Source of the DNA: Escherichia phage EcSzw_1
Direction: 5' to 3' (one strand)
Sequence record: MH791413.1
Length of the DNA: 64,000 bases
In this document: piece by piece, positions 53,296-54,712 of the stretch
Layout of the letters: the number at the start of each line of letters is the position of its first letter
How positions within the stretch are numbered: the stretch's first letter is position 1
Translations under genes and position numbers: made by a program
The notes under the pieces: model-generated
The model's input: the letters and a program-made list of their open reading frames with translations, nothing else
Databases searched by the model: none
Told to the model about the DNA's origin: nothing

Positions 53296-54567
53296 TTACC
53301 AGATGTAACGGTCAATCATTACTGCTTTGAGCATTACGCTGATTGGGTCAAACTTCTCACCACCAAGCAGAGCCTTTAAAGTGGCTGGAGAGAAACCTGA
53401 TACCATCGCTACTCCGTTATCCTTTACGGATACTTCGCAGTGACCATTACGGTTTGCTAAGTACCAGAATACCAGTTGTGGCATCTCATATCCAGCTTTT
53501 TCATACTTACTACGAATTACTTCGAAGTTTGTACGACCATTTGCCCCGTCAACCTGATTAAACTCCATATCAGAGAAGATAATAAGCTTACTTGGCATTG
53601 CTGCCTGAGTCAAGTTATTTCTTACACCAATTTCAAGAATACGGTCAAATGCTGCTTGTAGGTTTGTAGAACCATATTCAACATGACTCATAATCTGACG
53701 ATGACGATTCTGTAAAGTGCCACTCAGGGTGATAAAGTGAGGTCTGTCTGAGTAAATCATTAACTCATCTTTAAAACAACCTGTATTGCGTTCTGAGACG
53801 TATAACGCCAGAGACACACCAATATCAAGAGCGGTTACTGAACCAAATGTTTCCCAAGTCATAGAGCATGATACATCTGTCATACAAAGGATGTTTTCAC
53901 CATCAGCCATCCAGTTTGGTAGTGCTTTCCACTGTTCATTAGCAACTTGTGCTTGACCACGCTGAACAGATTTAAGAACATCATAAGGGTATACAGCACC
54001 AGCATTAATCTTCGTCTCGCCCTTAGATAGAGCTTCAACGTAAGCTGCATAACGTTCACCATCTTTCTTACTGAACAGTTTTTGATAACGTGCAGCAGCT
54101 AGTGAAGGAATCTTGCTGTAGTCAATCTCACCAAAGTTATTTGTAGAGATTTTCTGTTCAACGGTATCAGACAAAGCTGATAACAGTGTACGGTACTCTT
54201 TCTCACTCAGGTTTGCAAACTTACAGAAACGTTTTACAAACTGCTTGTGGCGTGGTTTTACTCGTGGTAACCACTTAGCTGCTAAACATGCTGTATCAGG
54301 GTCTAACAAAGCTGCCTCTAAATGCTTGAAAGCATCAGTTTCATAACGAGTACCTACGAAGATTTTGAAGTCATCGAAACGACCTAATTCAGAAATCTTA
54401 TCCATGATACGAAGAACTTGGAAAGAATCTAGAATGTTATCTTCGATTGCTTGTAAGAGAACAGTTCGGAAAGCTTTACGCTCACCCATACCTTCTCGTA
54501 CATCTCGCATATGCAGTAAAATACGAACTGCTACATCAACATCCTCACGCAAAGCTTTGTAGAACAA
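53296..54567 (-). CDS. vWA-domain protein with N-terminal helical domain (DUF2828/Ro60-like architecture?), 5' end disrupted
   Basis: MIDAS motif TDVSCSM and downstream IIFSDME; ORF-track start is TTG; true N-terminus appears to lie in a separate frame (54587..54712). Confidence 0.6.
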   Translation of the reverse strand: MFYKALREDVDVAVRILLHMRDVREGMGERKAFRTVLLQAIEDNILDSFQVLRIMDKISELGRFDDFKIFVGTRYETDAFKHLEAALLDPDTACLAAKWLPRVKPRHKQFVKRFCKFANLSEKEYRTLLSALSDTVEQKISTNNFGEIDYSKIPSLAAARYQKLFSKKDGERYAAYVEALSKGETKINAGAVYPYDVLKSVQRGQAQVANEQWKALPNWMADGENILCMTDVSCSMTWETFGSVTALDIGVSLALYVSERNTGCFKDELMIYSDRPHFITLSGTLQNRHRQIMSHVEYGSTNLQAAFDRILEIGVRNNLTQAAMPSKLIIFSDMEFNQVDGANGRTNFEVIRSKYEKAGYEMPQLVFWYLANRNGHCEVSVKDNGVAMVSGFSPATLKALLGGEKFDPISVMLKAVMIDRYIW

Positions 54568-54586
54568 GTCTGGGAGAATCTCTACA

Positions 54587-54712
54587 TTACCACGGCTTGA
54601 GCCAGGCAGCTTTGTAGAAGTCTACCAAGGCAGACATTGATGATGTATGGTTAACAGCACCATTTTCAGTTCGCCCTGCATGGAGGTGCGAATGTTTAAA
54701 TAAATCGCTCAT
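54587..54712 (-). CDS. N-terminal 41-codon fragment of the vWA gene, out of frame with the main ORF
   Basis: ATG 54712 with purine-rich SD; encodes MSDLFKHSHLHAGRTENGAVNHTSSMSALVDFYKAAWLKPW; its 3' end duplicates the VDFYKA / DLFYKA codons of the main ORF. Confidence 0.45.
   Translation of the reverse strand: MSDLFKHSHLHAGRTENGAVNHTSSMSALVDFYKAAWLKPW

What the first reader, a model, noticed from the sequence alone, without database searches (positions are those of the whole stretch)
53296..54712. vWA-domain protein immediately upstream of the tRNA array
The protein has a helical N-terminal region and a C-terminal vWA domain with an intact MIDAS motif (DVSCS...T...D). This architecture resembles Ro60/TROVE-vWA and DUF2828-type proteins. 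Bacterial Ro60 orthologs pair with tRNA-like Y RNAs, and this gene sits in the same leftward transcription unit as a tRNA array that contains several non-tRNA structured elements.
Basis: inference. Interest (0 to 1): 0.55.

Follow-up and report, generated by a model that had tools for sequence, protein, structure and literature searches.

The report
Ro60-like phage protein plus Y-like RNAs
This phage gene encodes a ring-shaped RNA-binding protein resembling the human Ro60 autoantigen, here broken by a one-base frameshift, and next to it lie four small structured RNAs, one a tRNA mimic, of a type that accompanies this protein family in very different phages and has apparently not been described.

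Summary
The window is Escherichia phage EcSzw-2 (Ounavirinae). The gene is real and is a DUF2828 + DUF7788 protein with an intact MIDAS. In this record one extra C at 54605-54606 splits it into a 41-aa and a 423-aa ORF; relatives have an intact 471-aa gene.

The protein part is not new. The gene is 89% identical and syntenic to Bas63 gp130, already reported as Ro60-like and as a counter to the Ppl defence.

What appears new is the RNA partner. Four elements in the proximal tRNA array (52132-52965, minus strand) share a covarying closing stem, an invariant ACAGCAA-type motif and an unpaired G. E4 also carries a T arm-hairpin-D arm module, as in bacterial YrlA.

Such elements flank DUF2828 genes on the gene's strand in phages of Klebsiella, Mycobacterium, Listeria, Campylobacter, Staphylococcus, Enterococcus, Bacillus and Vibrio, and in 75 metagenomic loci. 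A covariance model built without any coliphage sequence hits E4 at E about 1e-10.

Most likely this is a divergent Ro60/Y-RNA-type RNP used in counter-defence.

The parts
53296..54567 (-). ORF B: 423-aa C-terminal part of the DUF2828/DUF7788 Ro60-like protein (helical TROVE-like region plus vWA domain with MIDAS DVSCS...T...D)
54587..54712 (-). ORF A: 41-codon N-terminal fragment (MSDLFKHSHLHAGRTENGAVNHTSSMSALVDFYKAA...) holding the family's invariant T15, N17 and G18; separated from ORF B by the frameshift
54605..54606 (-). Frameshift site: one extra C (CC where SUSP1 and EP1 have C)
54752..54781 (-). Sigma-70-like promoter (TTGACA-18-TAAAGT) upstream of the gene's ATG
   Evidence: consensus match only
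53156..53285 (-). Two sigma-70-like promoters (53277-53249 TTGACA-17-TAATAT; 53185-53156 TTGACA-18-TAAAGT) between the gene's stop and tRNA-Pro. The first is embedded in a 12-bp hairpin (53285-53254) that also scores as terminator-like.
52896..52965 (-). E1, short Y-like element between tRNA-Glu and tRNA-Met: lower stem UGAC/GUCA, internal loop AGA/G, stem AGACCAA/UUGGUCU, motif UUCAGCAA, AU-rich interior
52740..52807 (-). E2, short Y-like element between tRNA-Met and tRNA-Asn: UUGC/GCAA, AGACCGU/ACGGUCU, motif UUACAGCAA. Weak Rfam hit to Dicty_Class_I_RNA (25.8 bits).
52273..52352 (-). E3, short Y-like element: GAGC/GCUC, AGACCAA/UUGGUCU, motif UUCAGCAA
52132..52265 (-). E4, long YrlA-like element: UUAC/GUAA, AGACCGUU/AACGGUCU, UACAGCAA, anticodon-arm-like hairpin, T arm GAAGGUUCGAUUCCUUC, hairpin ACACG..CGUGU, D-arm-like GUGUAAUGGGAGCAC
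47323..53128 (-). Co-oriented tRNA array (24 ARAGORN tRNAs plus tRNA-Glu at 52973-53044 and a tRNA-Tyr-like at 52500-52580) in which E1-E4 are interleaved; genomic context

Best explanation
The locus encodes a phage Ro60-type ribonucleoprotein system in a divergent form.

Protein (shown). It belongs to the DUF2828/DUF7788 family (phrog_850) and is the ortholog of Bas63 gp130. Its predicted fold is that of Ro60: a helical TROVE-like ring closed by a vWA domain with a MIDAS.

RNAs (shown by comparative genomics). Four small RNAs sit just downstream, interleaved with the first tRNAs. Each has its ends joined by a 7-8 bp covarying stem, followed on the 5' side by a 0-3 nt linker (usually 2 nt) and an invariant (N)CAGCAA motif, and on the 3' side by an invariant unpaired G. 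Three are short (about 70-80 nt). One (E4, about 130 nt) carries a permuted tRNA-like module (T arm, closed acceptor-like hairpin, D arm), as bacterial YrlA does.

Inferred mechanism. The tRNA-processing enzymes that cut the flanking tRNAs release the RNAs from the array transcript. The shared stem-motif module is the binding site of the Ro-like protein, in the way the conserved helix of Y RNAs binds Ro60. The RNP acts on host or phage RNA metabolism, by tethering or gating nucleases or by surveillance and repair of tRNA-like RNAs. That helps the phage against host defences.

Experimental support from the literature. The Bas63 ortholog counters the Ppl system.

This record. The protein gene carries a 1-nt insertion. 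It is either a sequencing error or an inactivating mutation.
For: Identity and family:
- The window is 100% identical to EcSzw-2.
- Pfam DUF2828 + DUF7788; phrog_850 'RNA-binding protein', E 5e-177.
- 89% identity over 471 aa and the same synteny with bas63_0130.
- PMC11482910 reports gp130 as structurally Ro60-like and as a Ppl counter, transferable to T7.

Fold:
- Foldseek top 11 hits are all Ro60, Rsr or phiLo Ro60.

RNAs in the window:
- Four copies, all on the minus strand, conserved in position in SUSP1 and Bas63, with compensatory changes.

Association with the gene elsewhere:
- In 1.2-kb flanks on the gene's strand in 9 phage lineages there are 27 elements against 1.35 expected (Poisson 8e-26). 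87% of motifs have an enclosing stem, against 14% in controls (Fisher 8e-19).
- With the unpaired-G criterion: 26 on the gene's strand, 0 on the opposite strand.
- In 75 independent IMG/VR loci: 70 same-strand against 6 opposite. All 30 covariance-model hits are on the gene's strand.

Structure:
- A4: all 7 stem pairs covary; C14, A15, G16, C17, A19 and G36 are invariant.
- A7: 94% paired, 19 of 21 pairs compensatory, covariation 0.81 against 0.24 shuffled and <=0.12 slid.

Homology of E4:
- Model R1, built only from Klebsiella, Mycobacterium and Enterococcus phage RNAs, hits E4 full length at 64.5 bits, E 9e-11. It is the only strong hit in the 64 kb.

Link to YrlA:
- Rfam YrlA gives significant sub-threshold hits exactly at the long elements next to DUF2828 genes: L005 39.6 bits, L011 47.8 and 34.4, L146 39.1.
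- The same model finds the known YrlA next to the canonical TROVE Ro60 of phage Bxz1 at 32.5 bits.
Against: - No binding, expression or processing data exist for E1-E4. The RNA-protein pairing rests on co-localisation, strand bias and analogy.
- gp130 alone, from a plasmid or inserted in T7 (which has no such RNAs), restores growth on Ppl hosts. The phage RNAs are therefore not strictly needed for that phenotype.
- Rfam YrlA does not hit the window even at E <=10.
- Pfam TROVE and vWA_Ro60 do not hit the protein. hhalign against Bxz1 Ro60 aligns only the MIDAS stretch. Homology to Ro60 therefore rests on a predicted structure.
- 5 of 15 named phage lineages (three T4-like phages, a jumbo phage, Lak) show no stem-motif element by the pattern scan within 3 kb. 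Three of them (L006, L134, L139) do have a weaker R1 model hit (31-35 bits) on the gene's strand.
- 27 of the 75 metagenomic loci have no element within 2.5 kb.
- The element definition was derived from three lineages and partly selects for the stem it then counts. E-values of R1 are rough because calibration was shortened.
- In this window the protein gene is frameshifted.
Confidence: 0.7

Rival explanations
1. The protein works alone as a protein-level inhibitor, for example using its MIDAS face to bind and block the Ppl ATPase-PHP nuclease. E1-E4 are unrelated spacer structures of the tRNA array, such as processing signals or decayed tRNAs.
For: gp130 alone suffices against Ppl from a plasmid and in T7. 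MIDAS residues are invariant in the family. vWA domains are typically protein-interaction modules (established knowledge).
Against: The same stem-ACAGCAA elements flank DUF2828 genes in phages where no tRNA gene was found within 8 kb (Mycobacterium Faith1) or only one 1.7 kb away (Staphylococcus 6ec). The strand bias is 26:0 and 30:0. The whole-chain Ro60 fold match points to RNA binding. Host RNAs could substitute in the T7 experiment.
Confidence: 0.15
2. The elements are cis-acting sites rather than stable partner RNAs. They would be autoregulatory operators in the mRNA leader or trailer of the DUF2828 gene, or signals that control transcription or processing of the adjoining tRNA cluster.
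For: They lie immediately upstream or downstream of the gene on the same strand. Promoter-like sites adjoin them in several phages.
Against: They occur in 2-5 tandem copies. They lie on either side of the gene in different phages. In the window they are 330-1170 nt away, separated from the gene by promoters and tRNAs. The long forms carry a complete tRNA-like elbow module, as the free-standing YrlA RNAs do.
Confidence: 0.1
3. In this particular phage the gene is a pseudogene. The 1-nt insertion is real, only a 423-aa N-terminally truncated product (TTG start) or nothing is made, and the system is decaying.
For: The insertion is not in a long homopolymer. The same 423-aa product is deposited for the sister isolate EcSzw_1 (P0004). 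The missing 48 residues include invariant T15, N17 and R40. Bas63 gene 130 is dispensable without Ppl.
Against: The record is flagged UNVERIFIED by GenBank. No other substitutions suggest decay: the restored protein is 99% identical to an intact homolog, P0001. E1-E4 are intact. Both EcSzw records come from one laboratory and may share one error.
Confidence: 0.3

Closest known systems
Bas63 (Escherichia phage JohannRWettstein) gp130, counter of the Ppl defence system (PhageMaP preprint, PMC11482910)
   Same: Ortholog: 89% identity over all 471 residues. Same neighbours (372-nt upstream gene, tRNA-Pro downstream) and the same four E elements. The authors noted the Ro60-like predicted structure and guessed that some 'tRNAs' might be Y RNAs.
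   Different: The window's copy is frameshifted. The paper did not identify any Y-like RNA. The candidates found here are not among the annotated tRNAs but lie in the spacers, partly under the predicted CDSs bas63_0137 and 0138 on the other strand.
Ro60/Rsr with YrlA/YrlB Y RNAs of bacteria and mycobacteriophages (Chen et al. 2014, PMC4201824); Thermus phage phiLo Ro60 with Yrl1/Yrl2 (PMC12135203)
   Same: Predicted fold: ring of helical repeats plus vWA/MIDAS. RNA genes lie next to the protein gene on the same strand. One RNA class has a T arm-hairpin-D arm tRNA mimic whose ends are joined by a stem carrying a conserved motif, and a shorter class lacks it. Rfam YrlA partly recognises the long forms.
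   Different: No Pfam TROVE or vWA_Ro60 match. The protein is about 470 aa rather than about 530-550. The RNA's conserved motif is ACAGCAA after a 7-8 bp stem plus a 3' unpaired G, not GNCGAA(N)G. All hits fall below the YrlA gathering score (69 bits). The system is usually embedded in or beside phage tRNA arrays.
Mycobacteriophage cluster L 'Ro-like RNA binding protein' (e.g. Faith1 gp55, LeBron gp53)
   Same: Same DUF2828 family (34% identity, full length). Three stem-ACAGCAA elements, one with a tRNA-like module, sit in the 369-nt gap after gp55.
   Different: No tRNA array nearby. The protein is known only from annotation and a toxicity screen (PMC13148394). Its RNAs are not described.
Dictyostelium Class I RNAs (Rfam RF01414; Kjellin et al. 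2021, PMC7919456)
   Same: Same architecture as the short elements: about 60 nt, a 6-bp covarying stem joining the 5' and 3' ends, a conserved motif CCUUACAGCAA directly after the 5' strand, a variable AU-rich interior, and conserved nucleotides (UG in the Rfam consensus; the paper describes a transcribed CUGU 3' end) at the 3' end of the stem. The Rfam model gives its only hits in these loci on the elements themselves (20.9-28.1 bits).
   Different: All hits are below the gathering score (41.5). Class I RNAs are eukaryotic with their own promoters. The known direct binder is an RRM protein (CIBP). Homology is untested.

Membership tests
Pfam DUF2828 (PF11443) + DUF7788 (PF25043) / PHROG 850 | Profile match above the curated cut-off over the N-terminal helical and C-terminal vWA-like parts | tested here: met
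   99.9 bits (cut-off 29) and 144.4 bits (cut-off 27.1); phrog_850 E 5.3e-177 over 1-471. The frameshift-corrected sequence was used.
Ortholog of Bas63 gp130 (Ppl counter-defence gene) | High full-length identity and conserved gene neighbourhood | tested here: met
   420/471 identical, no gaps; same flanking genes and tRNA-Pro
Ortholog of Bas63 gp130 (Ppl counter-defence gene) | Intact 471-codon reading frame | tested here: not met
   Extra C at 54605-54606 splits the gene. It may be a sequencing error, since the record is UNVERIFIED.
Ortholog of Bas63 gp130 (Ppl counter-defence gene) | Protects the phage from Ppl | not testable with these tools
   Known only for Bas63 gp130 (PMC11482910)
Ro60 / TROVE family | Sequence-profile match to Pfam TROVE (PF05731) and vWA_Ro60 (PF25045) | tested here: not met
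   No hit at E <=0.1, whereas Bxz1 gp220 hits both. The PDB profile search finds Ro60 only at E 0.8-1.2 over the MIDAS stretch. hhalign aligns 40 columns, probability 78%.
Ro60 / TROVE family | Fold: helical-repeat ring plus vWA domain, matching over the whole chain | tested here: met
Ro60 / TROVE family | MIDAS motif DxSxS...T...D in the vWA domain | tested here: met
   D279, S281, S283, T349 and D381 are invariant in 34 sequences; the window has DVSCS
Ro60 / TROVE family | Adjacent, co-oriented Y RNA partner | tested here: inconclusive
   No Rfam Y_RNA or YrlA hit in the window. A conserved YrlA-like RNA (E4) and three short relatives are present. Binding was not tested.
YrlA RNA (Rfam RF02553), for element E4 | Score at or above the gathering threshold (69 bits) | tested here: not met
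   No hit at E <=10 on 52100-52400. Relatives in other phages reach 29-48 bits.
YrlA RNA (Rfam RF02553), for element E4 | Architecture: terminal stem with a conserved motif enclosing T arm, closed acceptor-like hairpin and D arm, in that order | tested here: met
   Alignment to R1 has all 21 pairs formed. Covariation in A7. The order matches the YrlA consensus seen.
Dictyostelium Class I RNA (Rfam RF01414), for E1-E3 | Score at or above the gathering threshold (41.5 bits) | tested here: not met
   25.8 bits (E2) and 20.9 bits (E3)
Dictyostelium Class I RNA (Rfam RF01414), for E1-E3 | Short 5'-3' stem, then ..U..C..CAA motif, then a variable interior, about 60 nt | tested here: met
   compared with the description in PMC7919456. 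This is a resemblance only.

The most novel reading that the evidence does not exclude
The stem-ACAGCAA RNAs are the cognate partners of the whole DUF2828 protein family, including its eukaryotic members. On this reading, the orphan Class I RNAs of Dictyostelium (same stem, same UUACAGCAA motif, same length) are the eukaryotic version of this RNP. The uncharacterised protein DDB_G0281243, which was pulled down with Class I RNA DdR-21, or another Dictyostelium protein, would be a DUF2828 Ro-like protein. This would define a second Ro60/Y-RNA-like RNP class spanning phages and eukaryotes. The evidence does not exclude it, but I could not test it: no eukaryotic sequence was reachable, the AFDB library was unavailable, and the 2011 pull-down paper is not held.
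Probability: 0.2. Interest if true: 0.85.

Novelty: new variant of a known kind. Interest (0 to 1): 0.66.

Why it matters
DUF2828 proteins occur in at least 709 deposited phage genomes and thousands of metagenomic proteins, usually beside tRNA arrays. Pfam describes the domain as also present in eukaryotes (my recollection, not checked here). Their only functional datum is one anti-defence phenotype.

A conserved, structurally defined RNA partner, with short forms and a tRNA-mimic form, turns the vague label 'Ro-like RNA-binding protein' into a testable RNP model. It gives exact RNAs and nucleotides to mutate. It explains part of the 'non-tRNA' content of phage tRNA clusters. It also suggests that Ro60/Y-RNA-type machines are much more widespread in phages than TROVE-based searches showed.

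It may link tRNA-array biology, RNA repair genes (RtcB and RNA ligase sit next to the gene in Listeria phage AG20) and counter-defence.

Tried and rejected
- phmmer and profile searches of the PDB: nothing significant.
- hhalign of the family against Bxz1 Ro60: only the MIDAS stretch aligns. Sequence-level homology to TROVE is therefore not demonstrable.
- Rfam on the window at E <=1 and E <=10: no Y_RNA or YrlA hit.
- The GNCGAAG motif of canonical YrlA is not enriched (23 against 14 expected). In the array it occurs only inside E4's T arm.
- The IMG/VR scan with the coliphage-specific pattern AGAAGACCNNNNNCAGCAA returned mostly single chance matches. Only Felix-like contigs had multiple copies. 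That exact stem sequence is therefore lineage-specific, and I switched to a structure-plus-motif definition.
- Folding z-scores of the spacers were not discriminating on their own.
- NCBIfam: no model.
- Literature searches for DUF2828, PF11443 and DUF7788: no functional paper.
- The search for Ppl mechanism found nothing beyond the PhageMaP preprint.
The Dictyostelium link stays untested.
- tblastn for Pnk, phosphatase, RtcB and Rnl in the window found nothing. The Bas63 Pnk region probably maps outside the 64 kb.
- I considered and rejected that the E elements are promoters or terminators. They have no U tract, they covary as stems, and they are conserved across bacterial phyla whose promoters differ.
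Full report
**Source and observation.** The 2.2 kb around the finding is 100% identical to Escherichia phage EcSzw-2 (MH791400.1, Ounavirinae, Suspvirus). GenBank flags that record UNVERIFIED. ARAGORN finds 24 leftward tRNAs from 47323 to 53128. The gene lies directly upstream of tRNA-Pro.

The reading frame is not continuous. The ATG at 54712 opens a 41-codon ORF ending at 54587. The long ORF (53296-54567, 423 aa) is in another frame. Alignment with SUSP1 and EP1 shows one extra C at 54605-54606. Removing it gives a 471-aa protein. That protein is 99% identical to an intact metagenomic homolog (P0001), and SUSP1 has an intact 471-codon ortholog. The sister record EcSzw_1 carries the same 423-aa product. 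I cannot decide between a sequencing error and a real mutation.

**What the protein is.** The corrected protein matches Pfam DUF2828 and DUF7788 above threshold. It also matches PHROG 850 ('RNA-binding protein', E 5e-177). There is no NCBIfam model.

The family is large. More than 3000 proteins passed E <=1e-3 among the candidates scored. It occurs in 709 deposited phage genomes, from coliphages to Mycobacterium, Listeria, Staphylococcus, Campylobacter, Vibrio and Bacillus phages, where it is variously annotated 'vWFA protein', 'RNA-binding protein' or 'Ro-like RNA binding protein'. In an alignment of 34 members, the MIDAS residues (D279, S281, S283, T349, D381) and several N-terminal motifs are invariant.

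**Test of the Ro60 idea.** Sequence methods do not reach Ro60.
- phmmer against the PDB finds nothing.
- The family profile finds Ro60 only at E about 1, over the MIDAS stretch.
- hhalign against the canonical TROVE Ro60 of phage Bxz1 aligns 40 columns.
- Pfam TROVE and vWA_Ro60 hit Bxz1 gp220 but not this protein.

**What was already known.** bas63_0130 of phage Bas63 is 89% identical over 471 residues and has the same neighbours. The PhageMaP preprint (PMC11482910) reports several things about gp130:
- Its deletion cripples Bas63 on a host carrying the Ppl defence gene.
- gp130 alone, from a plasmid or inserted in T7, restores growth.
- The authors speculate that some neighbouring 'tRNAs' could be Y RNAs.

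Cluster L mycobacteriophages have long annotated their homolog as Ro-like. No paper in the searchable library treats DUF2828 function otherwise.

**The RNA side, in the window.** Rfam finds no Y_RNA or YrlA in 46500-55500 at E <=1, nor in 52100-52400 at E <=10. The model itself does work: it finds the known YrlA upstream of Bxz1 Ro60 at 32.5 bits.

Reading the spacers showed four copies of one design, all on the minus strand. They are E1 (52896-52965), E2 (52740-52807), E3 (52273-52352) and E4 (52132-52265). Each has these features in order:
- a 4-bp lower stem that differs and covaries between copies (UGAC/GUCA, UUGC/GCAA, GAGC/GCUC, UUAC/GUAA);
- an AGA/G internal loop;
- a stem AGACC(N2-3)/(N2-3)GGUCU;
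- the motif UU(A/C)CAGCAA;
- an interior that is AU-rich in E1-E3.

E4's interior contains an anticodon-arm-like hairpin, a T arm (GAAGGUUCGAUUCCUUC), a hairpin and a D-arm-like hairpin. T arm, closed hairpin, D arm is the order in YrlA.

All four copies are conserved in place in SUSP1 and Bas63, with compensatory changes: E2 has UUGC/GCAA versus UUAC/GUAA, and the E4 hairpin has ACACG/CGUGU versus ACUCG/CGAGU.

E1 and E2 fill the spacers between tRNA-Glu, tRNA-Met and tRNA-Asn almost completely. Cleavage by the enzymes that process the flanking tRNAs would therefore release them. This is inference.

**The RNA side, elsewhere.** I fetched the DUF2828 locus of eight unrelated phages. In seven of them the gene abuts or lies near tRNA genes on the same strand. 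In Listeria phage AG20 it also sits next to RtcB, an RNA ligase and phosphoesterases.

Rfam YrlA gives significant sub-threshold hits directly beside the gene:
- Klebsiella FBKp34: 39.6 bits, between the gene and the first tRNA.
- Enterococcus iF6: 47.8, 34.4 and 29.4 bits.

Their sequences show the same module as E1-E4: a 7-9 bp stem, a 0-3 nt linker (most often 2 nt), ACAGCAA, and a G after the 3' strand.

A simple scan for 'NCAGC(A/G)A preceded within 0-4 nt by the 5' strand of a >=7-bp stem closing within 150 nt' gave the following.
- In 1.2-kb flanks on the gene's strand in nine lineages: 27 elements against 1.35 expected from 2.2 Mb of control sequence (Poisson 8e-26).
- 87% of motif occurrences have a stem, against 14% in controls (Fisher 8e-19).
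- With the extra requirement of the unpaired G: 26 on the gene's strand and none on the other.

This includes Faith1, where no tRNA gene was annotated or detected within 8 kb of the gene and three elements sit in the 369-nt gap after gp55. It also includes Staphylococcus 6ec, with three in the 219-nt gap after the gene.

An alignment of 26 trimmed elements is gapless. C14, A15, G16, C17, A19 and G36 are invariant, and every one of the 7 stem pairs shows changes on both sides. The caveat is that the elements were chosen for having a stem.

In six further lineages used as a prospective test, Vibrio MS02 has three short elements and two long elements just upstream of the gene, and Staphylococcus PG-2021_12 has one element. 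Aeromonas, Erwinia jumbo, Lak, Citrobacter Ci1 and Vibrio D481 have no element by the pattern scan within 3 kb. However, Vibrio D481 (35.2 bits), Citrobacter Ci1 (33.0) and Aeromonas phiWae14 (31.3) each have a weaker R1 hit on the gene's strand, in or beside tRNA genes. Ci1's coincides with an unpermuted tRNA-like RNA carrying ACAGCAA.

**Covariance model.** I built R1 from four long elements of Klebsiella, Mycobacterium and Enterococcus phages only (A6, 21 pairs).
- It hits E4 over its full length at 64.5 bits (E 9e-11). This is the best non-training hit and the only strong hit in the 64-kb window. Next come Bas63 E4 (61 bits), two Bacillus and two Vibrio elements, and locally the Bxz1 YrlA.
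- On the 13 best hits, 94% of cells pair and 19 of 21 pairs show compensatory change. The covariation score is 0.81, against 0.24 for shuffles and <=0.12 for slid partners. That alignment is fitted to the model.
- In 75 independent IMG/VR loci carrying a DUF2828 gene with 2.5-kb flanks, the motif scan finds 70 elements on the gene's strand against 6 on the other, and 48 loci have at least one.
- R1 gives 30 hits at E <=0.01 in 20 of those loci, all 30 on the gene's strand, many abutting the gene.

**Interpretation.**
- Shown: the protein is a DUF2828 member with a Ro60-like predicted fold and is orthologous to an experimentally defined counter-defence gene.
- Shown: a conserved, structured RNA family, in a short form and a tRNA-mimic form, accompanies the gene family across phyla, and four members lie in this window.
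- Inferred: the RNAs are stable small RNAs bound by the protein through the shared stem-motif module, and the RNP is the functional unit.
- Against a strict requirement: gp130 alone works in T7.
- Transcription: consensus promoters occur upstream of the gene (54781-54752) and between the gene and tRNA-Pro (53277-53249, 53185-53156). 'One transcription unit' is therefore not established.

**Unexpected resemblance.** Apart from tRNA-clan, YrlA and scattered weak chance matches, the only Rfam family that repeatedly hits the short elements is the Dictyostelium Class I RNA (RF01414). The scores are 25.8 and 20.9 bits in the window, 25.2, 23.6 and 15.5 in the Klebsiella phage, 28.1 in Vibrio MS02 and 24.3 in L219. 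All are below the gathering score of 41.5.

Class I RNAs are about 60 nt. They have a 6-bp covarying stem joining the ends and the motif CCUUACAGCAA right after the 5' strand. Their function is unknown. One pull-down partner, DDB_G0281243, is uncharacterised. From my own recollection, not checked here, Pfam describes DUF2828 as occurring in eukaryotes and viruses. I could not test whether Dictyostelium has such a protein. This stays a speculative lead.

**Verdict.** The protein's Ro60 likeness is already in the literature. The cognate RNA family appears to be undescribed, and it makes this a new variant of the Ro60/Y-RNA kind of system.

Noticed in passing
window 52500-52580 (-): Probable type II tRNA-Tyr (anticodon loop CUGUAAA, long variable arm, T arm, CCA end) missed by ARAGORN and scoring only 22.8 bits in Rfam. 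The first acceptor pair appears to be A.C. Bas63 annotates tRNA-Tyr at the same place.
   Followed up: partly
window 52973-53044 (-) and 52811-52887 (-): The tRNA callers disagree. Rfam finds a tRNA (Glu in SUSP1 and Bas63 annotation) at 52973-53044 that ARAGORN omits. ARAGORN's second tRNA-Met at 52811-52887 is not reported by the Rfam tRNA model at E <=1.
   Followed up: no
window 50984-51348 (-): A 365-nt spacer contains two T-arm-like hairpins (GUAGGUUCGACUCCUAC; GGGGUUCGAAUCCUCC followed by GUCCCAUGCCA, which pairs with an upstream GUAUGGGAC). They look like decayed or unusual tRNA-like RNAs that neither tool calls.
   Followed up: no
window 51549-51734 (-): Weak Rfam hit to permuted tmRNA (34.6 bits, gathering score 47), overlapping tRNA-Ile. 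Probably tRNA-driven noise. Enterococcus phage iF6 does carry a true tmRNA in its array (142.7 bits).
   Followed up: no
window 49680-49775 (-): A 96-nt spacer between tRNA-Val and tRNA-Thr folds much better than shuffles (z -4.06), with an outer stem CAGAGGUC/AGACCUCU. It is not of the E type and is unexplained.
   Followed up: no
window 50183-50635 (-): An HNH endonuclease ORF (150 aa) sits inside the tRNA array. Relatives carry HNH genes at other positions in the array or next to the Ro-like gene (DE7, Meda, nataliec), which indicates mobile insertions.
   Followed up: no
window 53254-53285 (-): A 12-bp AT-rich hairpin lies directly after the gene's stop and contains a perfect -35 TTGACA. 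The same hairpin-with-promoter arrangement follows the DUF2828 gene of Klebsiella phage FBKp34 (L005 9455-9490).
   Followed up: partly
L008 (Listeria phage AG20) 7959-16185: The DUF2828 gene is followed within 6 kb by an HD phosphohydrolase, RtcB ('tRNA splicing ligase'), an RNA ligase and a phosphoesterase, and is preceded by the tRNA array. This context resembles the bacterial rsr-yrlA-rtcBA RNA repair operon.
   Followed up: partly
L139 (Citrobacter phage Ci1) about 4890-5010: Downstream of the DUF2828 gene lies an unpermuted tRNA-like RNA (acceptor stem, D arm, T arm, CCA) whose anticodon arm is replaced by about 60 nt containing CUACAGCAA. A 114-nt 'tRNA-Pseudo' is annotated next to it. 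It may be another topological variant of the partner RNA.
   Followed up: partly
L011 (Enterococcus phage iF6) 8-6602: The record annotates all tRNAs and the tmRNA on the strand opposite to the one on which Rfam finds them. This is probably a strand error in the deposited annotation.
   Followed up: no
L004 (Bas63) 22749-23023: The predicted CDSs bas63_0137 and bas63_0138 lie on the opposite strand over E3/E4 and the adjoining spacer. They may be spurious calls over RNA genes, which would matter for reading knockout data of those 'genes'.
   Followed up: no
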